From positions 1 through 20,016 of the forward strand of contig NW_021824026.1 in assembly GCF_006345805.1 (NCBI RefSeq): 20,016 nt of DNA, given 5' to 3'. Each line of letters opens with the position of its first letter. Positions within the stretch are counted from its first letter, which is position 1. Origin of the DNA: Octopus sinensis (taxonomy: Eukaryota). Of the stretch, positions 3,665 to 18,574 are shown in pieces. The position numbers and the translations under genes were made by a program. The notes beneath the pieces are model-generated. The model worked only from the letters and a program-made list of their open reading frames with translations, did no database searches and was not told the DNA's origin.

Positions 3665-3721
<57 letters not shown>

Positions 3722-3726
3722 ACACA
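3665..3726. repeat. (CA)n microsatellite
   Basis: Direct reading. Confidence 0.95.
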
Positions 3727-3963
3727 AATACGCTTACATGTATGCACGCATGCACTGAAACACAAAACTGCTGTAAGATGTTTTAGTTACTCTGAAACCA
3801 ATTTAAGGCCAAGGCAAGAATTTTGATTTTATATATTTTATATATTTATATATTTTTTGTACTGATTCCTTATTTTTATCATTTGATGATTTATACATTC
3901 TTGCACTATTAGAATCCGTTAGTTTAGGCCTAGTTTTTAATCAAAGCCTTCTGTTTGGATCTC

Positions 3964-4146
3964 ATATGTATATGTACATACGTAAGTATGTATATATGTA
4001 TGCATATATGTTATATAACGTATATAAATATATGTTATATAACATATGTGTATATATACATGTATACATATATACATATATTCTTATATATTTATGTATA
4101 TACTGAATACATAAATATATATGTATATATATTATTATATATATAT

Positions 4147-4186
<40 letters not shown>

Positions 4187-4357
4187 GTATGCGTATATAT
4201 ATATGTATATACATACATATATATATGCAGATATATATGTATACACACACACACACATATATATACATATATTACATATATATACATATATATATATGCA
4301 TATATACATACACACATATATATAAATATATATACATATATATGCATATATATATAT

Positions 4358-4388
<31 letters not shown>

Positions 4389-4390
4389 TA
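3964..4390. repeat. Compound degenerate (TA)/(CA) low-complexity tract
   Basis: Direct reading. Confidence 0.9.
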
Positions 4391-4485
4391 TTAGTCTTTT
4401 CTTCGTTTTAGTGTGAAGGTTTTCTGTGTATTATTTGATATGAGATTTCCTCCTTGTGAAGGAAAAAGAGGCAGAAAGACAGGAA

Positions 4486-4650
4486 GAGAGAGAGGGAGAG
4501 AGAGACACACACACACATACACACACACACACACGTACACAGATGGACAGAAAGTGAAAGTGAAAGAGCGAGAAAGCGAGGGAGAAAACGAATGACAGAA
4601 GAAAGCGTGTGCGAGTTAGAGAGAGAGTGAGAGATAGAAAGACAGAGAAA
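4486..4650. repeat. GA-rich/(CA)n low-complexity tract
   Basis: Direct reading. Confidence 0.8.
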
Positions 4651-4854
4651 GAAAAATGGCTAATTTCCTTCCTTGCTCTTTTTTTTCCTTCTTTCTTTTG
4701 AAACCTCGCAAATGATGAGATTAAAAGCTGTTGAAATCACTTTGATCAAAAACAATCCACGAAATGCATTGAGAATGTGAATTCTTGCAGGTGTATAATG
4801 CATATTCACTTAATGAGCAGAACAGGCCAGCTTAAGATGGACAACTCTGCGCAC

Positions 4855-4880
4855 TATTATTATTATTATTATTATTATTA

Positions 4881-4911
<31 letters not shown>

Positions 4912-4950
4912 ATCATTATTATTATTATTATCATTATTATTATTATCATT

Positions 4951-5003
<53 letters not shown>

Positions 5004-5011
5004 CATTATTA

Positions 5012-5054
<43 letters not shown>

Positions 5055-5097
5055 CATTATTATTATATTATTATTATTATCATCATTATCATTATTA

Positions 5098-5141
<44 letters not shown>

Positions 5142-5464
5142 CATTATATTTTATTATTATTATTATTATTTTAAAATTATTATTATTATATCATTATTAT
5201 TGTTGTTATTATCATTATTATTATTTATTATCATTATTATTGTTATTATCATCGTTATCATTATTATTATTATTATTATTATTATTAATTTTTATTATTA
5301 TCATTATTATTATTATTATTATCATTATTATTATTATCATTATTATCATTATCATTATTATTATTATCATCATTATTATTATTATTATTATTATCATCAT
5401 TATCATTATTATTGTTATTATTATTATTATCATCATCATCATCATTATCATTATTATTATATTA

Positions 5465-5499
<35 letters not shown>

Positions 5500-5640
5500 T
5501 ATTATTATTATCATTTTATTGTTATTATTATATTTCATTATATTATTATCATTATTATTATTGATATTATTATTAATTATTATTATTAATTATTATTATT
5601 ATTATTATTATTTATTATTATTATATTATTATATTATTAT
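4855..5640. repeat. Long (ATT)n/(ATC)n trinucleotide array, ~790 bp
   Basis: Direct reading; source of the poly-Ile/Tyr ORFs. Confidence 0.97.
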
Positions 5641-6149
5641 TTTGCTGTAGTTTATTGCTGGCACACGGGTTTGCAGTGAGTGCACGTTCTGCTCGGTATT
5701 TTCTTCCGGGAAAATATAATATAAAAAAAGAGGAAAAAAAAACTCTCTCTGTTTCATTTGGTTTGATTTGCTTAACAAAAGATGTCGGGATAGTAGAATT
5801 TTCACCCCATTAACCTGAAGTGGCAAAATAATAATAATAAAAAAATTATCGGAAAGATGGTGTTTTTAGCCTCATATATATTTATCTTTAGCAACCATGT
5901 GTATTGAATTACGTGCAGATTAAAATGGGCGTACACTGGCGGGAACGGGAGCTCGGGAAAGTACACAATAACGTACACAATAAAAACGTTCTCTTCATCT
6001 CTTCAATTATTCCCAAACATCATTTGAAACATAAAAATAAGTAGAAGTAGTTTTATGCGTAAAAACTATCTGTTGCACAATGGAAAAGACTTGTTGAGCC
6101 TGGGGAAAAGAGACAGAGTGTTTGATAGTAGCTGATCTTCTGAATCCGG

Positions 6150-6430
6150 TCACCTTGAAGTCATTAGCGTTCCAGATAAATTTTTTCTACATAGATCAAC
6201 ATTTTCAAGTAAGATATGAGCGGTAAAATAAGTTAGCAATATTGTGGTCAGAATATGCCTAAGATCCGAAGTTCTAGGGATAAGATATGAGGAAGAAAAT
6301 GTTCTAGACGAGAAATATGGAGCATACTGTTTAGTGTAGAACAGAGAGAGTCGGACGCATTAGAGTGCTGGAGGTACGAGACCACATAGCAGCGATGGAA
6401 AAGACAGCTGAGGGTGGGCCAGTTGATTAA
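6150..6430 (-). mobile_element. Possible very old LINE (CR1/Jockey-like) APE endonuclease relic
   Basis: Minus-strand peptide ...LQHSNASDS...HISRLEHFLPHILSL...ILG, then SDHNI after a frameshift, resembles the APE C-terminal LG.SDH motif. By-eye similarity only. Confidence 0.25.
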
Positions 6431-7016
6431 ATGAAAAAAACAAAACATATAATAGATTGTACTGAACAACACAACATCATTAACAAGAACATCTTTTTAT
6501 CGTTCGTAAATGTTTTGAATCTTAATATATTATCTTTTTTAGGAACCAGAGTTATTTACACGAATGTTGATCCTTATTTTGTCGCGATATCTGTGCAAAA
6601 ATGGGACTTGTGTTGAGCGCGGCGGTAAGGTGCAACATGTAGCAGAATGGGGTTCCCGTGATTATATCGTGATGTCTCCATCAGTACATGGCAACAATAT
6701 ATTTTCTATAGAAGATGCCAGCAGACTAACGATGCAACAGGAACGGTCCTTTGTTACACCTGTAGCAGAATCCCACGAAGAATCAACTGAAGGCTTTCTG
6801 CCCAGAAGAAGAAATATGAAAGAAAAAAACAGAGGAGAGTAGCAAGGGCAGCAATAACAGAAGGTTTCTTAAATGAAAACTATCACTGCTACTGCGGCTT
6901 TTGCTGCTGTCTCCATAACACTATAATTTGTAGCTACGAAAATAGTCCGAGTGAAAGCAAACGGAATTGCTTAATTTTCTACAAAATTGGTACCAGAGTC
7001 TGAGAATGCAGAGAAC

Positions 7017-7095
7017 AAAAATTCTGTGAGAGGAGTGGAAAGCAAGTTATCTGAATTTTCTCACAAAACGTTCAGCCGAAACGTTCAGAATTTTT
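7017..7095 (+). ncRNA. Degenerate hammerhead relic
   Basis: AAAAATTCTG-TGAGA-GG...CC-GAAA-CG-TT-CAGAATTTTT. Perfect 10-bp helix I, GG/CC base of helix II, ACGT palindrome, GUU triplet. The core reads TGAGA, two nt short of CTGANGA. Confidence 0.45.
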
Positions 7096-7329
7096 ATAGG
7101 TTGTTATAAAAGCTGTTAATATCCAACTCTGAATTAGGACAACCTCAGATGCTGCACGAAACTACACGACCCAACACAAGCCTGACCAGTGATTCTAAGC
7201 ATTATTTTAATTCTGATGTCTTCTGAGAGGTATTTTAGTGGTGTCAACTTTCAAGTGGATCTTTGTCATTAATTCGTTGTTGGTAGTACACAATATTATG
7301 TAGTCTGAGTGTAAATCGCAAGAATGACT

Positions 7330-7870
7330 CAATATTTGTATTATCTGATATTTTGTTAGCTGAAAACAGTTGCATTGACGATAAGTATTTCAATAAAACA
7401 GCATATAAGAAATAATGAATGCGAGAATTAAAAGTCTGCATTACATAAAGCAATTTTTGCATATAAAAATAAATTTATGGACAAAATAAGAAAATTGTGA
7501 ACACTTTATCGCTAAAATAACTGACAAAATATTGTGCTGCATCTGATCTGGTTGGAGAAATCAGTGTCCTAGCTGTTATAACAGTTACTGAAAATGTCCC
7601 AGCTTTTTATAACAGCTAATCAAAATGTCAGTATAAATAGGTATAAATTTCTAGTAATGATATTGGTGGAGCATGAGAGCCTTTCGATTTCAGGTTCAAC
7701 TTCCAGCAGATCCCGATGGACGTGCAAATAGAGATGCATATATTATTCGCTCCTATTAACCTTACAAAGATCATTGATACATTGCACTTGAAAAATAGCG
7801 ATGTAAATGGGGACTTTGTGAAGGATAGAAAGACCAAGTGTAGCTTATCCCGCTCAAAAAAAAATCTCTG
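7330..7870 (+). mobile_element. Possible decayed hAT (GTF2IRD2/Charlie-like) transposase remnant
   Basis: Stop-ridden peptides FVLSDIL..., EPFDF...QIPMDVQIEM and AYPA.KK occur in the order expected for hAT C-terminal motifs (FLxDI, PF, PxxxQMEL, YPxL). Weak. Confidence 0.25.

Positions 7871-7934: not shown

Positions 7935-8010
<76 letters not shown>
7935..8010. repeat. (TA)n microsatellite
   Basis: Direct reading. Confidence 0.97.
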
Positions 8011-8170
8011 GTGAGAATTTACAAAAAAGAAAGACGAAGGCGGGTGTGTAAACAACAAATAGTGTATTAGTTTAACGCTCGGGAAGTGAGAAGATCTTTT
8101 ACGTTTCGAGCCTACGCTCTTCGCCAGAAAGGAACACAAAAATAAACAGGGAGAGAAAATAGAAAAAGAC
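8011..8170 (-). mobile_element. Short hammerhead-bearing repeat, copy 1 (Penelope pLTR-like/non-autonomous)
   Basis: Homologous to ~17635-17790, sharing AATTTACA, ACGAAG.C.GGTGT, TATTAGTTT, ACGCTC.GG and a near-identical core. Its 3' end abuts (TA)n. Confidence 0.7.
8096..8131 (-). ncRNA. Minimal hammerhead-like motif with variant core
   Basis: Minus strand reads CTTT-CTGGCGA-A-GAGC-GTAG-GCTC-GAAA-CG-TA-AAAG. Confidence 0.6.
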
Positions 8171-8202
8171 ATACACACTCTTATATATATGTGTATGTCT
8201 TT

Positions 8203-8405
8203 GTGTCTGTTTGTCCCCGTCACAATCAGCTTGACAATCGGTGTTGTTATGTTAACTTCACCGTAGCTTAACGGTTCGGCAATAGAGAGGAATAGAATAA
8301 GAACCAAGCTTTAAAAGAGTTGATTCGTTCGGCTTAAATTCCTCAAGGCGGTGCTCCAGCATGGCTGCAGTCTGATGACTAAAACAAATAAAAGAAAAAA
8401 AAAGA
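8203..8405 (+). mobile_element. Octopus SINE family A, 3' half (diverged)
   Basis: Matches the 3' half of 14299-14707 (GCTTGACAA, CGGTTCGGCAA, GGCGGTGCTCCAGCATGG...ATGACT.AAACAA.TAAAAG). Confidence 0.85.
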
Positions 8406-8937
8406 TAAATATTAATACTATTTATATTTTGCCTAAGTGGAAACGGAGTTAGTCTTTTTGCGTAGAATTTTATTTTTAAAAATGCATGCTGGCTGTAAGA
8501 ATACAGCAGAACAAACTCCGATACTTGAATAATATTTCGTATCCTGCTGAGCGGTTTCAAGAAGTGGCAGCATAGATATATATATAAGAACTCAGGTAGC
8601 GATAAATGTTTAGTAGTCAGATGCATTCTCCATTCAGACGTTCCGTATCGTCACTTCCCCAGCGACTAAATAGACGGAAACAAAAGAAAAAATATTAAAA
8701 AAAAAAAGGAAAGAGGACATGGAAAAATATACAAAGAAAACTAGTAACAAAACAGCATCTTCGATCAAATATTTATTGTCCAAACACTGTTCTGACGAGT
8801 TGAAAAAAAAAAGACTATAAAGCAACAGGAAAAACCTGGAAAAGAGAAAGAACCAACCTATATTGGCAACAGTGTGACAAACTTGAAGATGGAAACTTAT
8901 GCGGAGTTTCCCACGCTTATGAAGAGGAATAGCACTC

Positions 8938-9030
8938 TGTGTGTGTAAATGTATGTGCATGTATTAGGGATGTGTATGTGAGTATGTATCTATATGTGTA
9001 GTGAATGTGTGCGTGCGCGTATGTGTGTGA

Positions 9031-9062
<32 letters not shown>

Positions 9063-9106
9063 AACACCATAAAATAAGTCCATTTACTCATATATCATTA
9101 TATGAA

Positions 9107-9149
<43 letters not shown>

Positions 9150-9186
9150 CATGCATATATTATAGACAAATACATAAATGCATACG

Positions 9187-9221
<35 letters not shown>

Positions 9222-9590
9222 ATATATATCTATATATATATATTCATGCATATACATTAATGCGTATATATATCTATATATATATATATCTCTCTCTATA
9301 TATATATATTTATACATAATATATATCTATATCTATCTATCTCTCTATGTCTATACACACACATATATATACAATGCTTATGCGTATGTATACGCATATA
9401 TATATATGTTTTTGTACATAGTATCATATATATACATATATATATATACAAGGAAACGTATATATAGACATATAATGATATATATATATATATATATATA
9501 TAGAATGATATATATATGTATGTATGTATACACACGTGTGTCCATACAAAGATTTATATAAAATCGCATACACACACGCACACACACAAG
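8938..9590. repeat. Compound (GT)n and (TA)/(CA) tracts
   Basis: Direct reading. Confidence 0.9.
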
Positions 9591-9845
9591 TACACACTTT
9601 GCGTACTCATTATTAGGATTCGTGAAATAATCAAATCTCTCTTTTACTACGTCCCGAGTTCGAACACCACCTGCACCTAAGTATCCCCTATCATCATATT
9701 CAGGTCGATATAATTATTATATTAACCTGTTGTGTTCCGTTGGCCGTTCCAATACATTATATAAATAGCTAATTGTCACTACAGCATGTAATGTATGAAA
9801 AATAAAAATCCTACGTTTAATATAATTAGACAGAGAAAAAAATTA

Positions 9846-10110
9846 TTTGATTACTAAGCGGGTCTCGTTGCACTGTTTAGGCGAAAGCACATATCTGATT
9901 AGCATAATTGGGCATCCAACTCTTAGCCTAAGAATGTGAGGTGGAAGCCCGGTTGGCTCCAATGAGTTGAGAAACTCGATAGCGTAATTGACAATGTGTT
10001 GGAGGTCAGATGTCCGGTCAATCGATTTGTAGATGTGCTCCTCATCCGGAATTCGGTTTATGAGCTGGTCGTTGATAGCACTAACATCTACGTTTTTGGG
10101 GGCTAGGATG
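9846..10110 (-). mobile_element. Helitron RepHel PIF1-like helicase fragment
   Basis: ILAPKNVDVSAINDQLINRIP...YKSID...NYAIEFLNSLEPTGLPPHILRLRVGCPIMLIR...CNETRLVIK matches the conserved Helitron/PIF1 2B region (ILxPxN, EFLN..GLPPH.L.LKxG.P.ML.RN...CNGTRL). Isolated fragment with no termini seen. Confidence 0.9.
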
Positions 10111-10157
10111 TCTACATAACGTCGATAAAATTGATGTCTACATAACGTCGATAAAAT
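10107..10157. repeat. Tandem 25-bp direct duplication
   Basis: GATGTCTACATAACGTCGATAAAAT at 10107-10131 and 10133-10157. Confidence 0.95.
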
Positions 10158-10463
10158 AATTACCAATCAACCATTCTGAAATTATGAATTGTTGCGCTCG
10201 CGCCAAAAATTTACATCATTCTTTAATGAGTCTTTCTGTTGTCACCATTGTTAAAATTGGTAATATTTTGACCTTATATTAATCCATTCCGTGACCATTT
10301 CATATTTTTACAATGCTTTTTTCTAGACATAATAAATCAATAACGAAACCAGTGTTACCGTATTCATTGTGTTTCCATCCTATGTAAGACAGTTGAGTAC
10401 AAAATAAAGAAGACTAGAGGCCACTCATGGACTCTAACGGATGGCTATGAGACGTTTCAGCAT

Positions 10464-10927
10464 AGCACATTTGGCGCCGTGTATTTGACGCGGCTTAATT
10501 AGCGTCACTGATTCAAGGCTGACTTATTTGGCAGCATACGTTTTAATGATTGTATCATTCTCTTCCACTCTCTTTTTCTTTTCTCCCCTCTCTCTTTATG
10601 ACAGCGAGAATATTTCTCTCAGGGAGGGGAGGGAAAGTGCATATGCTCATCGTATTACAAGTATAAATTGCAGATGGCGCAGGCGTGGTGCTGTGGGAAG
10701 AAGCTTGCGATTAAACCAGATGGTTCCGAGTTCAGTCCCACTATGTGACACCTTGGGCAACTGTCTCCAACTAAAGTCTTGTGCTCACATTTTGCGCATG
10801 GTTTTGTATATGTGTGCATGTGTGTGCGTGTATGGATGTGAGTGTTTGCCTCCAGTGCCAAAATATACCGTCACCAGTCAGCCGCGGCATATCTTCAACG
10901 CCCAAACGGCTGCACCAAATTGTCCCA
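10464..10927. mobile_element. Possible decayed non-autonomous DNA transposon with subterminal inverted motifs
   Basis: Left TTTGGCGCC/TTGACGCGG/TTTGGCAGC motifs versus right GTGCCAAA/GCCCAAA/GCACCAAAT motifs in inverted orientation. Confidence 0.3.
10676..10773 (+). mobile_element. Octopus SINE family A, 5' tRNA-like head
   Basis: GGCGCAGGCGTGG...GGTTCCGAGTTCAGTCCCACT...CCTTGGGCAA matches the head at 14299. Confidence 0.8.
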
Positions 10928-11298
10928 TGCAACTCAATTTAAGAGATATTTAACTATTATTTCTTGTAAAATCTTGAGACCAAGTATGAAGACTCATTCG
11001 TTGGTTTCATTTCAAATCCAGGTTGTGGAAGATTCACTTTGTTTGAAGTGCAGACACACAGTCATAATACTCTAAACAGCTTGCATTATTGTCACGTGTC
11101 TCTGGTATTAGAAGAAATTGTAGAATCTGAAGATTGTGGATATTTTCAAGAGTTTACAAAGGAATTGTAATATATTGGAATTAATAGAATAGACATACTG
11201 GCATCAACTCTGCTCGAAGCTTAACAAGAATAAAGTCTGAGTCTATTTAAGCTTTATGGAGAATTGTTTGCATATGGACGTATGTATACATATATGTA

Positions 11299-11362
<64 letters not shown>

Positions 11363-11363
11363 C

Positions 11364-11438
<75 letters not shown>

Positions 11439-11439
11439 C

Positions 11440-11486
<47 letters not shown>

Positions 11487-11487
11487 C

Positions 11488-11521
<34 letters not shown>

Positions 11522-11525
11522 TTAT

Positions 11526-11565
<40 letters not shown>

Positions 11566-11688
11566 ATGTATGTATATGTATCTTTACATGTATATATGTA
11601 TGTGTATATACACTCTTCTACCTACCTTCCTATTTATCTATCTATCTATCAGTTTGTCTATCTGTCTTTCTATCTATTTAGCAAGCTA

Positions 11689-11735
<47 letters not shown>

Positions 11736-11835
11736 GTCTGTCTGTCTGTCTGTCTGTCTGTCCTCCCTGTCTCTCTGTTTGTCTATCTATCTATCCATCC
11801 ACCCATCCATTAATCTATCTATCTGTCCATCTATC
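11299..11835. repeat. (TCTA)n/(TCTG)n/(TCCA)n microsatellite
   Basis: Direct reading. Confidence 0.95.
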
Positions 11836-12039
11836 TATGCAATATATTTATCTATCCGTGAGTGTATGCCTGTGTGTCGGTGTACACACGTGCCCACACG
11901 CATAGATGCACTCATCGACACACCCACACACCCACATACCCACATGCCCACTCTGTAAAAACTTATATTATAAGGAATTATCAGAACATTTAAAAAGTCG
12001 CACACAGTACGTTATTGATTCTTTTGGATTTTCGGGTCA

Positions 12040-12120
12040 CTGAGTTCAAATCCTGCGAAGGTCAACTTACTTTCTCATCGTTCGAGGGTCAATAAATAAA
12101 GTACTAGTAGAATCTCGGGT
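12040..12120 (+). mobile_element. SINE family B core fragment (diverged)
   Basis: GAGTTCAAATCC...AGGTCAACTT.CTTTC.CATC.TTCG.GGGTC.ATAAATAAAGTAC aligns to 13598-13660. Confidence 0.7.
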
Positions 12121-12415
12121 GAAATTTTTTTCTTTTCTTTCTCTTTTTCTCTCTGGATTGTATCTGTATACGAAGAATCCATACTTGTTAAACTGTTCCA
12201 CACTGGTTCCGACCCAGGCTTGTATGAGCTAAATGGTTGAATATTCGATGGCTACCATGGAATATTCAACCGCTTATCCATTAATTTTAGGTGCAGGAAT
12301 TCAAATAATCGGACCAAAGAATGTTAATCGCATCGTTGAAATCGATGGAGAATTTAAAATCTATATCCAATATATTTTATAACAAGTTACGAGGCTCCCG
12401 AGTCAGATTTGGGTA

Positions 12416-12808
12416 TACTCTTTTACTTGTTTCAACCATTTGACTGTGGCCATGCTGGAGTACCGCCTCTAATCGAGCAAATCGACCTCAGGACTTATTC
12501 TTTGTAAACCTGGTACTTATTCTATCGGTCTTTTTTTGTCGAATCGCTAAGTTACTGGGACGTAAACAAACCAGCATCGGTTGTGAAGCGATGTTGAGGG
12601 GACAAACGCAGACACACAAACGTATACACACACATACATATAAACATATACACAACGGGCTTCTTTCAGTTTCCGTCTACCAAATCCACTCACAAGGTTT
12701 TGGTCGACTCGAGACTATAGTAGAAGACACTTGCCCAAGATACCGCGCGGTAGGACTGAACCCGGAACCATGTGGTTGGTAAGCAAGTTTCTTACCACAC
12801 AGCCACTC
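12416..12808 (-). mobile_element. Octopus SINE family A, near full length
   Basis: Reverse complement aligns along 14299-14707, including the B-box-like GGTTCAGTCC and the TAAAAGAG tail. Confidence 0.92.
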
Positions 12809-12844
12809 GACAGCAAATATTACCACGGAATATTTCTATTGGAT

Positions 12845-13193
12845 AAAGGGTAAAGACCCACGTCACTCATGAATGACCATTGTATTGCACTTAGAAAGTC
12901 CCCCACCACCACCACCGAAACACAAGTCCGGGCAACGTCGTTTATGGAAGACCAGGAGTCACCCATGCATACTTGCTTCCCTTCTCCACACCGCTGATGT
13001 TATCCAAGGGAAAAGCAAAGGGGCCGGTACAGCTTGGCACCAGTGACGGCTCAACTCGTTTCTATAGCTGAGTGAACTGGTGCAATGTGAAATAAAGTGT
13101 CTTGCTCAAGAACACAATACAGAGCCCGGTCTGGGAAACGAGCTCACTACCTCATGACTGTGAACCTGACGCTCTAACCACTGAGCCATTACC
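12845..13193 (-). mobile_element. tRNA-derived SINE family D with MetaSINE-like core
   Basis: Minus head TGGCTCAGTGGTTAGAGCG (A box). Core TGTGTTCTTGAGCAAGACACTTTATTTCAC.TTGC.CCAGT.CACTCAGCT is shared with 17262-17520 but has a different 3' tail ending in CTTTACCCTTTA. Confidence 0.8.
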
Positions 13194-13343
13194 TTCCGTT
13201 TGATGCCTTTTTGTTGTCTCTCTTTTTATTAGCCACACTTTGTTTTAGACGGAGAACGGGACGGAGAAATGTGTGAGACTGGGTTGAGATGTATGTACGT
13301 AGTAATGAAAAAAAAATGGAACACTGGTCCTTCAAAAGCTATA

Positions 13344-13757
13344 AGCGGCGAGCTGGCAGAATCGTTAGCACGCCGGGCGAAATGCTTAGCGGTATTTCGT
13401 CTGCCGTTACGTTCTGATTTCAAATTCCGCCGAGGTCGACTTTGCCTTTCATCTTTCGGTCGATTAAAATAAGTACCAGTTACGCACTGGGATCGATATG
13501 ATCGACTTAATCCGTTTGTCTGTCCTTGTTTGTCCTCTCTGTGTTTATCCCCTTGTGGGTAGTAAAGAAATAGGTATTTCGTCTGCCGCTACGTTCTGAG
13601 TTTAAATTCCGCCGAGGTCGACTTTGCCTTTCATACTTTCGGGGTCGATAAATAAAGTACCAGTTACGCACTGGGGTCGATGTAATCGACTTAATCCGTT
13701 TGTCTGTCCTTGTTTGTCCCCTTTATGCTAAGCCCCTTGTGGGTAGTAAAGAAAATA
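13344..13757 (+). mobile_element. SINE family B (Nin/Deu-like core): full unit plus tandem 5'-truncated second unit
   Basis: GCGGCGAGCTGGCAGAATCGTTAGC head and core GACTTTGCCTTTCATC.TTTCGGGGTCGATAAATAAAGTACCAG. Unit 2 restarts at GTATTTCGTCTGCC (13574). Confidence 0.92.
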
Positions 13758-13844
13758 TAAACTCATATAAGGCGGGTCTCTCGGATTTTGTGGCGTATAA
13801 ATACACTTACCTGTCTTGACAGGACACCTGTCCGTCGCAAGGTT

Positions 13845-13945
13845 ATTCATTCCTGCTGCGTGGGGCGAGGCAACGTGACACAACATACAGCCCGGTCCAG
13901 GAATCGAAGCCACTACCTTACGATACTAAGTCTAACATTCTAACC
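13845..13945 (-). mobile_element. Diverged SINE family D head
   Basis: CAACATACAGCCCGGTCCAGGAATCGAA.CCACTACCTTACGA...TCTAACCA aligns with 13115-13180. Confidence 0.65.
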
Positions 13946-13947
13946 AT

Positions 13948-14090
13948 ATGTGTGTGCTTGTGGATGCGTGCGTGTACATCTGTGTGTGTGTGTGAGTGCC
14001 TCTGTGTGTGTGAGAGTGCGTGTGAGTGTGTGAGTCCGTGTGTATGTGAGTGCGCATGTATATATATATGTGTTTGTGTGCGTGTGTGTA
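13948..14090. repeat. Degenerate (GT)n tract
   Basis: Direct reading. Confidence 0.9.
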
Positions 14091-14280
14091 TTTCGCTTGA
14101 TAACCGATATTGGTGTGTTGATGTCCCCGAAGCTTAACGGTTCGGCAAAATACAGCTATAGAATAGTATTAGGCTTACAAATAATAAGTACTGGGGTTGA
14201 ACTGTTCGACTAGAGGCGGTGCACCAGCATGGCCGCAGTCAAATGACGGAAACAAGTAAAAGAATAATAGAATAAAAGAA
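14091..14280 (+). mobile_element. SINE family A, 3' half
   Basis: Aligns with 14528-14700. Confidence 0.88.
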
Positions 14281-14298
14281 TATATATACATATATATA

Positions 14299-14707
14299 GG
14301 CGCAGGAGTGGTTGTGTGGTAAGTAGCTTGCTAACCAACCCCATGGTTCCGGGTTCAGTCCCACTGCGTGGCATCTTGGGCAAGTGTCTTCTGCTATAGC
14401 CCCGGGCCGATCAATGCCTTGTGAGTGGATTTGGTAGACGGAAACTGAAAGAAGCCTGTCGTATATATGTATATATATCTGTGGGTGTATGTTGTGGTTG
14501 TGTGGTGCTGTTTGTCCCCCCTAGCATTGCTTGACAACCGATGCTGGTGTGTTTACGTCCCCGTCACTTAGCGGTTTGGCAAAAGTGACAGATAGAATAA
14601 GTACTGGGCTTACAAAGAATAAGTCCCGGGGTCGATTTGCTCGACTAAAGGCGGCGCTCCAGCATAGACGCAGTCAAATGACTGAAACAAGTAAAAGAGA
14701 AAAGCGA
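14299..14707 (+). mobile_element. Octopus SINE family A, full length
   Basis: tRNA-like head with A/B-box-like motifs (TGTGTGGTAAG, GGTTCAGTCC), CTTGGGCAAG core, internal TA/GT linker, conserved 3' half and AAAAGAG tail. Flanked by TA tracts. Confidence 0.95.
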
Positions 14708-14710
14708 AAA

Positions 14711-14839
14711 AATATATATACATACACATACATATATATTCACATATATACATGCATACATATATAGACATATACACATGCATACGTACACACACAGATA
14801 TATATACAGACACACATATATATGTATATATACGTATAC

Positions 14840-14870
<31 letters not shown>

Positions 14871-15505
14871 ATACACACACACAACCACACACACACACAC
14901 ACATACACACACACACATATATATATCTATATATATATATATATATACATACATATAGAATATATTATATATATATATATGCATTGTGTGTATATATACA
15001 TATAACAGATGTAATGCATTTAATATATACATATCACATAATTTCTTCTTGTCTCTGCCAGGCAATCTGATTGTGTACCTCTCCACACACACACATACAC
15101 ACACACACAGTCACTCACACACACATACACACACTTACTCATATACACACACAAAATATACGAGCCCAGACATATCTCCACATGTATTTACATACGTACA
15201 GAACACATAAATACGCAACCCACACGCACACATACACACATATGCATATATATATATATCTATTATATTTAATATATATTACATTATATTTAATGTATAC
15301 ACACACACACACATGATTGGTGATGTCACCGTGGATTTTCTACTTAGGTTTACACACATACATTTATACATACGTGCGTTGATGCACATACACATAATTA
15401 AATATATACATTCATATGTGCCTAAATGCAACCGTACATATATATTAAATATAGATCCATCCATACACACACATAAACACACACACATATAAACACAAAC
15501 ACACA
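14711..15505. repeat. Compound (TA)/(CA) low-complexity tract
   Basis: Direct reading. Confidence 0.88.
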
Positions 15506-15728
15506 CAGGCCCGCAGACACACTTGCACGTACGTTCGCATAAACAATGCGCAGCTTTGATCGGCTGCTCAGAACTACAGTGTGAAAAGCTTCGCTGGAAT
15601 TAATGGACCGCTCTTGGCCAAGCTGACAACAAGTGTCACACTTTCCCACGCTTAACAAAAGCTCACCATTTTCTAGCATCATCGATGCCATTTCTTCATC
15701 CAGGAAGCTAGCCAGGCAGTCCCCCAGT

Positions 15729-15910
15729 CAACCAACAGCCAAACCCGGCAACCAGTCATTCAAACCAGCCAGCCAGCCAGCCAGTCGGCTGGATAAAGAT
15801 TTACATCAGGCAGGTTACCAGATCGACTTACCAGCCGCCTGACCAGCCTACAAGGCATGCTTGTGCTGAGTCGGCGGGCTGGTTGGCTGGGTGGTTGGTT
15901 GGTTGGTGGT
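15729..15910. repeat. (CCAG/CCAA)n motifs followed by complementary (CTGG/TTGG)n motifs
   Basis: CCAGCCAGCCAGCCAG near 15765-15784; GGCTGGTTGGCTGGGTGGTTGGTTGGTTGG near 15877-15906. Confidence 0.7.
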
Positions 15911-15944
15911 TTGTGGATCCTATAAGCAACGGACATGTCTTATA

Positions 15945-16209
15945 TACTCTTTTGCTCTTTTACTCTTTTACTTGTTTCAGTCATTTGACTGCGGCCATGC
16001 TGGAGCACCGCTTTTATTCGAGCAAATAGACCCCAGGACTTATTCTTTGTAGCCTAGTACTTATTCTATCGGTCTCTTTTTGCCGAACCGCTAAGTTACG
16101 GGGACGTAAACCACACCAGCATCGGTTGACAACGGTTGGGGGGACAAAACAGACACACCCACACCACATACACACATACATACACACCACACACACCCAC
16201 ACACACACA

Positions 16210-16251
<42 letters not shown>

Positions 16252-16428
16252 CTATCACATACATATATACGACGGGATTCTTTCAGTTTTCCGTCTACCA
16301 AATCTACTCACAAGGTTTTGGTCGGCCCGAGGCTATAGTAGAAGACACTGGCCCAAGGTGTCACGCAATGAGACTGAACCCAGAACCATGTGGTTGCAAG
16401 TTACTTACGACACAGCCACTCCTGCGCC
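15945..16428 (-). mobile_element. Octopus SINE family A, full length with expanded internal microsatellite
   Basis: Reverse complement of the 14299 element; the plus strand ends in CACAGCCACTCCTGCGCC. Confidence 0.95.
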
Positions 16429-16435
16429 TATTTGC

Positions 16436-16600
16436 ACATGCTTTCAGTTTTTGGACTTCGGTCATGCTGGAACACCACTTTGAAAGGCTTAGTGGAACAA
16501 ATCGGCCTCATGACACTATTTTGTTAAGTCTGGTATATATTCTATCGTCATGTCTTTGACGAACCGCTGGATTAGTGGGATGTAAACAAACCAACGGTTC
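16436..16600 (-). mobile_element. SINE family A, old 3' half
   Basis: GGTCATGCTGGAACACC...GAACCGCT...GGGATGTAAACAAACCAAC. Confidence 0.7.
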
Positions 16601-16779
16601 TCGGTACTCCTCTCACTGTAGTGAAGGTTAAAACCCATACACAAAGACAATCATATAGATATACACATACATACATACGTACATACATACATATATATGC
16701 GTGTGCGTGTGTGTATAGATATGCATATATATATCTATATATACTACATACATGCAACATACATACATACATACATACA

Positions 16780-16833
<54 letters not shown>

Positions 16834-16834
16834 A

Positions 16835-17060
16835 TCTTTTATTCTTATACTTGTTTCAGTCCTTTGACTGCGGCCATGCTGGAGCACCGCCTTTAATCGA
16901 AGAAATCAACCCCAGTCTTATTCTTTGTAAGCCAAGCACTTATTCTATCGATAACATTTGCCGAACCGCTAAGTTACGGGGACGTGAACACACCAACATC
17001 GGTTGTCAAGCGATGGTGTGTGTGTGTGTGTGTGGGGGGACAAACGCAGACACAAACACA
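16835..17060 (-). mobile_element. SINE family A, 3' half
   Basis: Closely matches 15960-16150. Confidence 0.9.
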
Positions 17061-17261
17061 CACACACATACACACTTATATACATACACACACACACACA
17101 CGCATATAATATCAGCCGATACTACGATGATGGTCTTATGAAAGACTGAGGGTTCAAATGTCCGTCCATGTGTTATTGTATCGTCTTCTAAGTTATACGT
17201 ACTTGTCCATGTGTAATTCTACATACCTTATATATATATATATACACATATATATATGTAC

Positions 17262-17520
17262 TTGGCTCACGATCGTAAGGTCGTGAGTTCATTTCCAAGT
17301 GACGCGTTGTATCCTTGAGCAAGGTACTTTACTTCACGTTACTCCTCTCCATTCAACTGGCATAGGTGAGTACTACCTCTGTTTCAAATGGCCAGCCTTA
17401 TCACATTCTGTGAATCTCCCTGAGAACTATGTGAAATGGTACGCCTCTCTGTAGAGTGCTCAGCCACTGCACGTTAATTTTACGAGCAAGGTGTTCCGCT
17501 GATCGTAACCGACGGAGGCT
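17262..17520 (+). mobile_element. tRNA-derived SINE family C with MetaSINE-like core
   Basis: CTCACGATCGTAAGGTCGTGAGTTCA head remnant, TCCTTGAGCAAG..ACTTTACTTCACGTT core and a distinct tail ending GTAACCGACGGAG. Confidence 0.75.
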
Positions 17521-17529
17521 CATGTTACA

Positions 17530-17531
17530 TA

Positions 17532-17565
<34 letters not shown>

Positions 17566-17590
17566 CTATATATCTATATATATAATATAA

Positions 17591-17621
<31 letters not shown>

Positions 17622-17632
17622 ATACCTATATA
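17530..17632. repeat. (TA)n microsatellite
   Basis: Direct reading. Confidence 0.93.
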
Positions 17633-17634
17633 TC

Positions 17635-17790
17635 GTTCAAATTTACAGAAAATTTATAAATTTACGAAGACAGGTGTTATTAGTTTTTTACGCTCAGGGA
17701 GAATGGAAATGTCTCGTACGTTTCGAGCCTACGCTCTTCGACAGAAAGATTGAAAAGGAGTGAGAATGAAAAAAAATAATAAAAAGAAAA
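17635..17790 (-). mobile_element. Short hammerhead-bearing repeat, copy 2
   Basis: Homologous to 8011-8170; its 3' end abuts (TA)n. The 5' limit is uncertain. Confidence 0.7.
17712..17749 (-). ncRNA. Minimal hammerhead-like motif with variant core
   Basis: Minus strand reads TCTTT-CTGTCGA-A-GAGC-GTAG-GCTC-GAAA-CG-TA-CGAGA. Confidence 0.6.
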
Positions 17791-17919
17791 CGTAGTGAGA
17801 AAAAATATGTGTCGGGATTAATAGTTCAACATGATGAAATAGCCAGAAGAGGCTGAATCAAAGGGTGATAATAACGGCGACCCAGATGAACACACACACA
17901 CACACACACACATATATAA

Positions 17920-18556
17920 GGCGCAGGCGTGGCTGTGTGGTAAGTAGCTTGCTTACCAACCACATGTTTCCGGGTTCAGTCCTACTGCGTGGAACCTTGG
18001 GAAAGCGTCTACTAATATATATTTCTTTACTACCCACAAGGGGCTAAACACAGAGGAGACAAACAAGGACAGACAAAGGGATTAAGTCGATTACATCGAC
18101 CCCAGTGTGTAACTGGTACTTAATTTATCGACCCCGGAAGGATGAAAGGCAAAGTCGACCTTGGCGGAATTTGAACTCGGAACGTAACGGCAGACGAAAT
18201 ACGGCAACGCATTTCGCCCGGCGTGCTAACGTTTCTGCCAGCTCGCCGCCTTCTACTAATATAACCACCGGACGACCAAAGCCTTATGAGTGGATCTGGT
18301 AGATGGAAGCTGAAAGAAGCCCGTCGTATATATATGTGTGTGTGTGTGTGTTTGTGTGTCTGTGTTTGTCCCCTCACCATAGCTTGACAACTGATGCTGG
18401 TGTGTTTACATCTCCGTAACGTAACGGTGTGGTAAAATAGACTGATAGAATAAGTACTAGGCTTACAAAGAATAAGTTCTGGGGTTGATTTGGTCGCCCA
18501 AAGGCGGTGCTTCAGCATGGCCGCAGTCAAATGACTGAAACAAAAGAATAAAAGAA
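17920..18556 (+). mobile_element. SINE family A interrupted by a family B insertion
   Basis: Head at 17920-18019; the element resumes at 18252 and runs to the tail at ~18556. Confidence 0.93.
18020..18251 (-). mobile_element. SINE family B, full length, with 12-bp TSD
   Basis: Reverse complement of 13344-13573. TSD TCTACTAATATA at 18008-18019 and 18252-18263. Confidence 0.95.
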
Positions 18557-18574
18557 AAAATATATATATATATT

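What the first reader, a model, noticed from the sequence alone, without database searches (positions are those of the whole stretch)
8011..17790. Two-copy family with a highly conserved, non-canonical minimal hammerhead core
Seen: the copies at 8011-8170 and 17635-17790 have clearly diverged flanks, yet the block 8100-8131 versus 17717-17748 matches at 31 of 32 nt. On the minus strand it reads CUG(G/U)CGA-A-[GAGC-GUAG-GCUC]-GAAA-CG-UA. Neither copy has the normally invariant A6, both have an extra A before helix II, and helix III is reduced to ACGU. Inference: selection has acted on an atypical hammerhead core, or on a derived RNA structure recognised by a PLE reverse transcriptase. This is the most plausible previously undescribed element in the window.
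Basis: partly seen in the sequence, partly recalled or inferred. Interest (0 to 1): 0.75.

Follow-up and report, generated by a model that had tools for sequence, protein, structure and literature searches.

The report
Penelope retroelement hammerhead with U6 core
The two look-alike stretches are broken-off tail ends of a Penelope-like jumping gene present in many thousands of copies, and their conserved block is that element's known minimal hammerhead-ribozyme motif with one normally essential base changed (A6 to U), a change that likely weakens self-cutting although the motif appears to be kept by selection.

Summary
In detail: window 8100-8131 and 17717-17748 match at 31 of 32 bases, with diverged flanks. 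It is not a two-copy family. The core 22-mer occurs 15,175 times in the 2.72 Gb genome. The copies are 5'-truncated 3' ends (pseudo-LTR) of a Penelope-like element (PLE) that has RT plus a C-terminal GIY-YIG ORF, open frames up to 1009 aa, and insertion next to (TA)n.

Only position 6 is unusual, and it is family-wide. It is U in 13,318 of the 15,175 copies and A in 140. The G in window copy 1 is a deviation from that family-wide U.

A sister family in the same genome (3,219 hits) keeps canonical CUGACGA, has a different loop II, and has a swapped helix I pair. Among subfamilies of the U6 family, the 38-nt block varies only at N7 and H17, the two positions the hammerhead consensus leaves free, while the flanks vary widely.

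Verdict: a new variant (A6U) of a known kind. Self-cleavage is untested. I found no genomic sign of cleavage-defined 5' ends.

The parts
8018..8162 (-). Copy 1: a 5'-truncated 3'-end (pseudo-LTR) fragment of the PLE family, matching model positions 44-194 of 201.
   Evidence: nhmmer with the family profile, E 2.7e-33. No PLE ORF anywhere in the window.
8096..8131 (-). Minimal hammerhead-type block of copy 1. Helix I strands lie at 8128-8131 and 8096-8099. The CUG-G-C-GA box lies at 8121-8127, with position 6 at 8124 (G, deviating from the family's U). Helix II is GAGC/GCUC around a GUAG loop, followed by GAAACGUA. The predicted scissile bond lies between 8100 and 8099.
   Evidence: Read from the sequence. 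Aligned with 68 other copies.
7936..8010 (.). (TA)n microsatellite abutting the 3' end of copy 1. This is the family's usual insertion context.
   Evidence: The same context is seen in most of the 32 aligned copies.
17664..17833 (-). Copy 2: an older, more diverged 5'-truncated 3'-end fragment, matching model positions 4-174, with an internal deletion of about 18 nt.
   Evidence: nhmmer E 2.3e-21. A profile of the 3' part alone missed it at E 1e-3.
17713..17748 (-). Minimal hammerhead-type block of copy 2. The CUGUCGA box lies at 17738-17744, with position 6 at 17741 (U, the family state). GUA lies at 17717-17719. The helix I 3' strand has decayed (CGAG instead of AAAG).
   Evidence: Read from the sequence. 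Alignment.
17536..17630 (.). TA-rich microsatellite abutting the 3' end of copy 2.

Best explanation
Both window copies are 5'-truncated 3'-end (pseudo-LTR) fragments of a very abundant Penelope-like retrotransposon, and the conserved block is that element's minimal hammerhead motif carrying U in place of the invariant A6, a change predicted to cripple fast self-cleavage, while the fold is likely kept because the element's RNA or its RT-endonuclease protein still uses it.

Shown:
- The element unit is about 4.5 kb. It has one ORF (RT, then a C-terminal GIY-YIG endonuclease) and ends next to (TA)n.
- A truncated upstream copy supplies a pseudo-LTR, so the motif sits both before and after the ORF.
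- Most genomic copies are short 5'-truncated tails like the two in the window.
- The motif has every published feature of metazoan PLE minimal hammerheads except A6.
- A sister family in the same genome has the canonical A6 core.

Inferred:
- The U6 state arose once from a canonical ancestor, before the subfamilies of this family split.
- Source elements stayed under constraint afterwards, because the block varies only at N7 and H17.
- The retained role is structural or protein-assisted rather than fast autonomous cleavage. I put about 55% on this, against about 25% for useful residual self-cleavage.

The confidence given (0.8) is for the identity (a PLE pseudo-LTR minimal hammerhead with a family-wide U6). 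The functional part is less certain, as stated.
For: Identity as a PLE:
- A degenerate copy upstream of one motif gives Pfam RVT_1 at E 6.7e-8 (above cut-off) and GIY-YIG at E 1.3e-3.
- An intact 1009-aa frame gives RVT_1 at E 1.3e-7 and GIY-YIG at 16.9 bits.
- Its nearest Atlas clusters carry RVT_1, GIY-YIG and HTH_animal.
- Searching the genome with the endonuclease part gave 16,563 first-look candidates. All 150 that were scored are 94-100% identical, with open frames up to 1009 aa.
- In 30 of 30 fetched loci the element lies on the same strand about 0.6-0.9 kb downstream.
- Two full-length copies show pseudo-LTR, ORF, pseudo-LTR, with the motif in both repeats.

Motif:
- U6 in 13,318 copies, A6 in 140, out of 15,175.
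- Among 46 of 60 copies picked by a 3' anchor, 58 of 199 columns differ between subfamily majorities. Only N7 and H17 differ inside the 38-nt block (hypergeometric P 1.7e-5).
- Within groups the mismatch rate is 41/1420 in the block against 213/3377 in the flanks (P 4e-7).
- The sister family has 3,219 hits with A6 in 98 of the 100 listed. It has the same helix II stem, a different loop II, and its fourth helix I pair changed on both sides (CG 41, GU 10, GC 6).

Literature:
- The base between positions 9 and 10.1, the G10.1-C11.1 pair, the palindromic 15.2-16.2 pair and the location in pseudo-LTRs are the described min-HHR traits (PMC4209133, parts 1-2).
- Mutations in the CUGA turn give low activity (PMC9901934, passages).
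- A natural A6C variant cleaves slowly (PMC3088659, passages).
- In one tested PLE, hammerhead cleavage is protein-assisted and not needed for insertion in vitro (PMC11167929, passages).
Against: - No Rfam hammerhead model matches the window copies or a full-length unit, even at E up to 5-10. Minimal motifs lack helix III, so this is expected.
- Helix II never shows a two-sided change. Structural support therefore rests on essentially one lineage-level compensatory pair in helix I.
- Thermodynamic folding is not better than shuffles (z -0.03 to -1.4). The hammerhead-competent pairing (-8.4 kcal/mol) is less stable than a rod-like alternative (-10.8).
- GIY-YIG stays below Pfam's cut-off.
- The N7 groups are defined by N7 itself, so only H17 is an independent variable site in the block.
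- Unresolved sub-subfamilies or alignment error in the flanks could inflate the contrast.
- No RNA data were seen, so neither cleavage nor protein binding is shown.
Confidence: 0.8

Rival explanations
1. The U6 motif is still a working ribozyme. As a dimer across tandem pseudo-LTRs, or with the element's protein, it cuts after GUH often enough to process the element's transcripts, and U6 is a tolerated or even preferred core variant.
For: - The block is conserved in exactly the hammerhead pattern: only N7 and H17 vary.
- H17 is A or U and never the forbidden G in the subfamily majorities.
- The family is the most abundant hammerhead-type family in the 620 kb sample (9 of 17 descriptor hits).
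- Rare natural core variants, including A6C, retain some activity (PMC3088659, passages).
- A PLE hammerhead cleaved only with protein present (PMC11167929, passages).
Against: - All single and double mutants of the CUGA turn other than the C-G swap had low activity in a comprehensive screen (PMC9901934, passages). That screen used a type III ribozyme, not a PLE motif.
- Junctions of (AT)4 with the first base after the predicted cut number 54 (control 5). A microhomology-matched site elsewhere in the element gives 79 (control 36). There is therefore no specific excess of cleavage-defined 5' ends.
- Both full-length copies carry upstream pseudo-LTRs that run well past the motif.
Confidence: 0.25
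2. The block is conserved for a DNA-level reason, such as a promoter or protein-binding site in the pseudo-LTR, and its hammerhead shape is only an ancestral leftover.
For: - PLE pseudo-LTRs are reported to hold the promoter for the downstream copy (PMC6765202, passages).
- A second conserved stretch without an obvious fold, shared with the sister family, lies 12-20 nt downstream.
Against: The differences between the two families fall where an RNA hammerhead allows them: loop II, a two-sided change in helix I, N7 and H17. A DNA site gives no reason for that pattern.
Confidence: 0.1
3. There is no constraint at all. The block looks conserved because the subfamilies are young, or because of sampling and alignment effects, and U6 marks a dead ribozyme that hitch-hikes.
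For: - PLE clades without canonical hammerheads proliferate well (PMC8557442, passages), so the motif may be dispensable.
- The copies were picked with CpG-containing anchors, which favours young copies.
Against: - The flanks of the same copies differ at 56 of 161 columns between subfamily majorities, against 2 of 38 in the block.
- The within-group mismatch rate is halved in the block.
- The 22-mer of the block has more exact hits (15,175) than either of the two 20-mer variants of a well-conserved flank site (9,069 and 6,556).
Confidence: 0.1
4. The similarity to a hammerhead is chance. The element is an ordinary SINE, and the block is, for example, a Pol III B-box-like promoter.
For: - The stretch GGCTCGAAAC loosely resembles a B box (my recollection of the consensus, from no call).
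- No Rfam hammerhead hit.
Against: - ARAGORN finds no tRNA-like gene in the window.
- The sense strand is full of T runs.
- 30 of 30 PLE ORF loci carry the element at a fixed place downstream.
- The sister family has a perfect canonical core.
Confidence: 0.03

Closest known systems
Minimal hammerhead motifs (min-HHR) in the pseudo-LTRs of metazoan Penelope-like elements (Cervera and de la Pena 2014, PMC4209133)
   Same: - Type I layout with a short helix I (4 bp here).
- One unpaired base between A9 and G10.1.
- G10.1-C11.1 closing helix II.
- GAAA followed directly by a palindromic C-G and U-H with no loop III.
- Location in both flanking repeats of an RT plus GIY-YIG element.
- Thousands of dispersed truncated copies.
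   Different: - Position 6 is U instead of the invariant A across the whole family.
- Helix II is only 4 bp, whereas the Schistosoma families described there have 7-8 bp.
- The motif is nearly invariant within this family, whereas that paper stresses high variability.
Sister family in the same genome (short ~230-nt element, loci L204-L223, L049, L062)
   Same: - Homologous tail with the same helix II stem.
- The same bulged A and the same GAAACGU.
- The same downstream conserved stretch.
- (TA)n on both sides.
   Different: - Canonical CUGACGA core (A6 in 98 of 100 listed hits).
- Loop II of 3 nt.
- Helix I fourth pair G-C or G-U instead of C-G.
- A discrete 5' end, and no ORF found within the 3-kb loci (1 of 20 loci had any tblastn hit, and that hit was misplaced).
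- About five times fewer exact hits (3,219 against 15,175).
Natural hammerheads with core deviations, e.g. the A6C variant of phage Bcep176 (Perreault et al. 2011, PMC3088659)
   Same: A natural sequence with a non-A base at position 6 in an otherwise consensus core.
   Different: That case is a single bacterial-phage locus with measured slow cleavage. Here the change is A6U, fixed in a eukaryotic retroelement family of many thousands of copies, and its activity is untested.
PLE clades that lack canonical hammerheads (Naiad, most Chlamys; Craig et al. 2021, PMC8557442)
   Same: - Very high copy number without a canonical hammerhead.
- (TA)n insertion bias.
- Pseudo-LTRs from partial tandems.
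   Different: - Those clades have an N-terminal endonuclease and no recognisable hammerhead fold.
- This element has the C-terminal endonuclease order, for which that paper states canonical hammerheads are universal, and it keeps the whole fold with one core substitution.
Metazoan non-LTR retrozymes (PMC7229834 listing; 2026 preprint 10.64898/2026.07.22.740005, abstract only)
   Same: Short non-coding hammerhead-bearing sequences related to PLE pseudo-LTRs.
   Different: - Retrozymes are tandem arrays that give circular RNAs.
- Here copies are dispersed singletons.
- The few arrays inspected include unrelated DNA and look like local duplications.

Membership tests
Hammerhead ribozyme, PLE minimal type I | Core box C3 U4 G5 A6 N7 G8 A9 | tested here: not met
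   Six of seven positions fit. Position 6 is U in 13,318 and A in 140 of 15,175 copies. It is G in window copy 1 and U in copy 2.
Hammerhead ribozyme, PLE minimal type I | G12 A13 A14, the A15.1-U16.1 pair, and H (not G) at position 17 | tested here: met
   GAAACGU followed by A or U in all four subfamily majorities. The A15.1-U16.1 pair is present in 64 of 64 distinct rows.
Hammerhead ribozyme, PLE minimal type I | Helix I flanking the core, supported by covariation | tested here: met
   Four pairs. Three of them are paired in 56-59 of 64 distinct rows. The fourth shows CG 41, GU 10, GC 6. This amounts to essentially one lineage-level compensatory event between two families. A fifth possible pair is unpaired in 42 of 64 rows.
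Hammerhead ribozyme, PLE minimal type I | Helix II closed by G10.1-C11.1, supported by covariation | tested here: inconclusive
   The stem GAGC/GCUC is 98% paired, but no pair changes on both sides. An invariant stem neither supports nor contradicts the fold.
Hammerhead ribozyme, PLE minimal type I | One unpaired base between 9 and 10.1, and a palindromic 15.2-16.2 pair without loop III (min-HHR hallmarks) | tested here: met
   The bulged A and the C-G step are present in both families. The features are as listed in PMC4209133 (part 2).
Hammerhead ribozyme, PLE minimal type I | Match to a curated hammerhead covariance model | tested here: not met
   No Rfam hammerhead family at gathering score or at E up to 5-10. 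Those models expect a helix III.
Hammerhead ribozyme, PLE minimal type I | Site-specific self-cleavage after H17 | not testable with these tools
An indirect genomic test of 5' ends showed no specific excess.
Penelope-like element, C-terminal endonuclease type | Single ORF with a reverse transcriptase followed by a GIY-YIG endonuclease | tested here: met
   RVT_1 at residues 392-581, above cut-off (E 1.3e-7). GIY-YIG at residues 812-845, at 16.9 bits, below the 22.6 cut-off. The YIGQTGR motif is visible in the translation. Atlas neighbours carry both domains.
Penelope-like element, C-terminal endonuclease type | Pseudo-LTRs from partial tandem copies, 5' truncation, hammerhead motif in the repeat | tested here: met
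   L199 repeats 2088-2871 and 6591-7381 are 95.8% identical and flank the ORF at 3667-6693. L203 is arranged likewise. 5' ends vary among 39 copies.
Metazoan non-LTR retrozyme | Head-to-tail arrays of 170-400-nt hammerhead units, and circular RNA | tested here: not met
   Four close pairs or arrays were inspected. The arrays of 619 nt x2 and 312 nt x4 contain unrelated DNA, in one case another repeat plus (TA)n. Circular RNA could not be examined.
tRNA-derived SINE | tRNA-like head with A and B boxes at the 5' end | tested here: not met
   ARAGORN finds nothing in the window. 5' ends are variable. The copies continue upstream into a PLE ORF.

The most novel reading that the evidence does not exclude
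U6 is a selected, functional state: the first hammerhead with A6U fixed in nature. It works as a protein-assisted or dimer-only ribozyme, or as the RNA handle of the RT-endonuclease, in the most successful Penelope-like family of this genome. A canonical A6 sister family alongside it provides a built-in natural control.
Probability: 0.3. Interest if true: 0.7.

Novelty: new variant of a known kind. Interest (0 to 1): 0.45.

Why it matters
What the hammerheads of Penelope-like elements are for is an open question. They cleave poorly in vitro. One tested element inserts without cleavage. Whole clades do without them.

This genome holds a matched pair. One family has the canonical core. Its relative has the 'essential' A6 replaced by U, is about five times more abundant by exact motif count, has intact ORFs, and still holds the rest of the motif fixed. 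That makes the question directly testable by swapping A6 and U6 in both backgrounds and measuring cleavage, protein binding and retrotransposition.

There is also a practical point. Descriptor searches that require CUGANGA will miss this family and under-report hammerhead-bearing PLEs.

Tried and rejected
- **Rfam.** Scans of the window, of both copies at E up to 10, and of a full-length unit at E up to 5 gave no hammerhead, only microsatellite-driven miRNA-like noise.
- **SINE reading.** I first considered a tRNA-type SINE with a B-box-like core. I dropped it after finding the upstream ORF and no tRNA.
- **Retrozyme reading.** The close pairs and arrays turned out to be local duplications that carry unrelated DNA.
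- **A6 'restored' copies.** The 140 copies are scattered, occur with all four N7 letters, and make up about 0.9% of the 15,175 copies (140 of them). That is about what the 2.9% block mismatch rate predicts for one particular base. They are not an ancestral subfamily.
- **Cleavage-defined 5' ends.** The junction at the predicted cut looked enriched against two neighbouring positions: 54 against 6 and 0. A control site with the same T-A-A microhomology gave 79 (backwards control 36), so the excess is explained by microhomology with (TA)n.
- **Folding.** z-scores are not significant, and the dimer prediction is just a strand-swapped hairpin.
- **Second hammerhead.** A search for a second, canonical hammerhead inside five full-length or long copies found none.
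- **Sister-family partner.** tblastn gave 1 of 20 loci with a hit, and it was misplaced. The partner remains unidentified.
- **Earlier notes of this scan.** None for this genome.
- **Literature.**
  - A search for 'A6U' with 'hammerhead ribozyme' gave 3 papers, none on a natural variant.
  - A search with a host guessed from memory (unverified) plus Penelope and hammerhead gave nothing relevant.
  - Lunse et al. (PMC5785218) is not held.
  - The supplements of PMC4209133 and PMC8557442, which list hammerhead variants, were not read. A U6 variant could be recorded there.

Full report
**1. The observation**

Window 8011-8170 and 17635-17790 do hold two related stretches. Plus-strand 8100-8131 and 17717-17748 differ only at 8124 (c) versus 17741 (a), which is 31 of 32. 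Across a 254-column alignment of the two regions only 136 columns are identical.

Rfam finds no hammerhead. There were no matches at gathering score over the whole window. At E up to 10 around either copy the only hits are microsatellite-driven miRNA-like noise.

**2. Size of the family**

The window itself is a whole 20,016-base contig.

A profile of the 3' part of the element found 14 copies in 600 kb taken arbitrarily from three large contigs, plus copy 1 of the window. That extrapolates to roughly 6 x 10^4 copies. 'Two-copy family' is therefore wrong.

**3. What the copies are**

Aligning 30 fetched copies with the two window copies showed three things:
- a common 3' end that abuts (TA)n;
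- often (TA)n on the 5' side too;
- 5' ends at many different positions (also, 39 copies).

One copy, L002, continued about 1.3 kb upstream. Its upstream DNA translates to an endonuclease-like stretch with a YIGQTGR motif.

Pfam evidence:
- On that degenerate copy: RVT_1 (E 6.7e-8, above cut-off) and GIY-YIG (E 1.3e-3, 19.4 bits, below the 22.6 cut-off).
- On an intact 1009-residue frame: RVT_1 at residues 392-581 (E 1.3e-7) and GIY-YIG at 812-845 (16.9 bits).
- The nearest Atlas clusters carry RVT_1, GIY-YIG and HTH_animal.

Searching the genome with the 141-residue endonuclease part gave 16,563 first-look candidates. All 150 scored matches were 94-100% identical, with open frames up to 1009 residues. 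In 30 of 30 fetched loci the family profile hits the same strand about 0.6-0.9 kb downstream of the endonuclease match.

Of five long copies fetched, two show the classical arrangement:
- L199 has repeats at 2088-2871 and 6591-7381 (95.8% identical) around an ORF at 3667-6693, with the motif at 2731 and 7239.
- L203 is arranged likewise.

The upstream repeat ends at the same tail. The unit of about 4.5 kb begins directly after it.

This is the pseudo-LTR architecture of Penelope-like elements (PLEs). The sense strand of the element is the window's minus strand. The window holds no PLE ORF. Its two copies are short tails: 8018-8162 and 17664-17833.

**4. How the motif compares with known PLE hammerheads**

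Cervera and de la Pena 2014 (PMC4209133, parts 1-2 read) describe minimal hammerheads in PLE pseudo-LTRs with these features:
- a short helix I;
- an unpaired base between positions 9 and 10.1;
- a conserved G10.1-C11.1 pair;
- no helix III beyond a palindromic 15.2-16.2 step, so that two motifs must dimerise.

The location in the pseudo-LTR fits too.

**5. Position 6**

Among copies that keep the downstream 22-mer, the form with U6 counts 13,318 and the form with A6 counts 140. The remaining 1,717 have another base at position 6 or a change in C3-G5.

The A6 copies are scattered and occur with all four N7 letters. They make up about 0.9%, which is what random change to one particular base predicts from the 2.9% block mismatch rate. 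So U6 is the family state. The G in window copy 1 is a deviation from it.

My descriptor found no second, canonical hammerhead in five long copies. Rfam found none in a full unit.

**6. A canonical sister family**

I ran a simple descriptor over the 620 kb (600 kb sample plus window). It required CUG-N-N-GA, an optional bulge, a stem of at least 4 pairs closed by G-C, then GAAA. It gave 17 hits and none in reversed or complemented controls. Nine hits were this family (eight U6, one G6). Eight had A6.

Two of the A6 hits belong to a clearly homologous element. That element has the same bulged A, the same GAGC/GCUC stem, the same GAAACGU and the same conserved stretch 12-20 nt downstream. It differs in having a CUGACGA core, a 3-nt loop II, and GUUU/AAAC instead of CUUU/AAAG in helix I.

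Its core pattern has 3,219 exact hits, with A6 in 98 of the 100 listed (83 CUGAC, 14 CUGAU, 1 CUGAG, 2 CUGGU). It is a short element of about 230 nt with a discrete 5' end and (TA)n on both sides. I did not find its coding partner.

**7. Is the block under constraint?**

To avoid picking copies by the block itself, I took 60 copies by two variants of a 20-mer about 60-65 nt downstream and aligned them to the profile.

Forty-six copies had the block. The other 14 were truncated or gapped and were dropped. I grouped the 46 by N7 (T 17, A 13, G 11, C 5).

Results:
- The group majorities differ at 58 of 199 columns.
- Inside the 38-nt block they differ only at N7, which is the grouping variable, and at H17, which is A or U (hypergeometric P 1.7e-5 outside the anchor).
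- Within groups, non-CpG mismatches to the group majority are 41 of 1420 in the block against 213 of 3377 in the flanks (Fisher P 4e-7).

The only two positions that vary among subfamilies are the two that the hammerhead consensus leaves free.

On 70 motif rows (48 anchor-picked, 20 sister-family, 2 window) the named structure is paired in 89.3% of cells, against 17.6-47.8% when partners are slid:
- The fourth helix I pair shows CG 41, GU 10, GC 6, which is essentially one compensatory event between the families.
- One sister-family copy has a further U-A to C-G change.
- Helix II never changes on both sides, so it is uninformative.

**8. What does not support activity**

- Folding energies are no better than shuffles (z -0.03 to -1.4).
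- The hammerhead-competent pairing (-8.4 kcal/mol) loses to a rod-like alternative (-10.8) in which U6 pairs with A15.1.
- Published screens report low activity for all CUGA-turn mutants except the C3-G8 swap (PMC9901934, passages).
- A natural A6C variant cleaves slowly (PMC3088659, passages).

I also asked whether genomic copies begin at the predicted cut, as they would if cleaved RNA were copied:

| Junction of (AT)4 with | Matches | Backwards control |
|---|---|---|
| first base after GUH | 54 | 5 |
| three bases further on | 6 | 7 |
| five bases before | 0 | 1 |
| another site with the same T-A-A microhomology | 79 | 36 |
| a third such site near the 3' end | 11 | 0 |

There is no excess specific to the cleavage site. 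Both full-length copies have upstream repeats that extend far past the motif.

**9. Retrozyme behaviour**

Four close pairs or arrays were inspected:
- The 619-nt pair (L045) contains another repeat and (TA)n.
- The 312-nt x 4 array (L046, 93% matches) contains about 175 nt of unrelated DNA per unit.
- The other two pairs (L043, L044) share only the last 110-170 nt with the unit.

The two arrays (L045, L046) look like local duplications, not rolling-circle products.

**10. Reading**

The window copies are dead tail fragments of a very successful PLE that has intact ORFs in the genome. Their conserved block is the element's minimal hammerhead with A6 replaced by U. The canonical sister family and the universality of A6 make a single A-to-U change in the ancestor of this family the simplest history (inferred).

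All subfamilies share U6 yet keep the rest of the block fixed while their flanks diverged. This suggests the source elements stayed under constraint after the change (inferred).

Which function is constrained is open. In one tested PLE, hammerhead cleavage needed the protein and was dispensable for insertion in vitro (PMC11167929, passages). N-terminal-endonuclease PLEs thrive without canonical hammerheads (PMC8557442, passages). On that basis I favour a structural or protein-assisted role with weak catalysis (about 55%) over useful self-cleavage (about 25%), a DNA-level role (about 10%) or no constraint (about 10%).

**11. Novelty**

The kind is known. The variant appears not to be.
- PMC8557442 states that canonical hammerheads are universal in C-terminal-endonuclease PLEs.
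- My searches found no natural A6U hammerhead.
- I did not read the supplements of PMC4209133 and PMC8557442, and Lunse et al. is not held. A prior record cannot be excluded.

Noticed in passing
window 8229-8299, 14095-14165, 14529-14599, 18382-18452 (and related pieces 12411-12808, 13345-13754, 14165-14720, 15941-16396, 16808-17018, 17919-18573): A second, unrelated short interspersed repeat family occurs at least four times in the window in both orientations (families D13-D20 and inverted pairs I1-I3). One copy lies only about 70 nt from hammerhead copy 1. The same repeat sits inside the 619-nt duplication in L045.
   Followed up: no
L204-L223; L049:5960-6340 (-); L062:2610-3000 (+): A sister element of about 230 nt has a canonical minimal hammerhead (CUGACGA), a discrete 5' end and (TA)n on both sides. 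It has 3,219 exact core hits. It looks like a non-autonomous relative of the PLE, and its coding partner was not found.
   Followed up: partly
L056 (-) around descriptor hit 8482; L062 (-) around 2363: Further canonical A6 minimal-hammerhead-like motifs with different helices, one with a 5-bp helix II and a CAC/GUG helix I. These probably belong to other PLE families of the same genome.
   Followed up: no
L046:1671-2923: A tandem array of 4.0 units of 312 nt (93% matches). Three units carry the core with A at position 6 and the edge unit carries the family's U. Each unit also holds about 175 nt of unrelated DNA.
   Followed up: partly
L199:7277-7310 and the aligned part of L062 (alignment A2 columns 207-230): A second stretch (TTCCTGAGCG, then TAATAC a few bases on) lies 12-20 nt downstream of the hammerhead block. 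It is conserved between the two families and among subfamilies, and has no obvious fold or known role.
   Followed up: no
own genome, junction counts: 5' junctions of truncated copies with (TA)n are much commoner at element positions that offer T-A-A microhomology (54, 79, 11) than at neighbouring positions without it (6, 0). This suggests microhomology-guided joining of the cDNA end to the microsatellite target.
   Followed up: partly
L199:2200-2560 and 6700-7060: The pseudo-LTR upstream of the motif holds internal tandem repeats rich in CA and TA (units such as ..ATACATACTAATAC..) and a CT-rich tract that overlaps the ORF's C-terminal end.
   Followed up: no
about 65-80 nt upstream of the CUG box (offsets 64-81); model position 1-4 of the family profile: About 9 of 39 copies inspected begin at or within a few bases of the same point (CGCCATG). 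This may be a preferred 5' end or a short non-autonomous subfamily. The rest are truncated at scattered points.
   Followed up: partly
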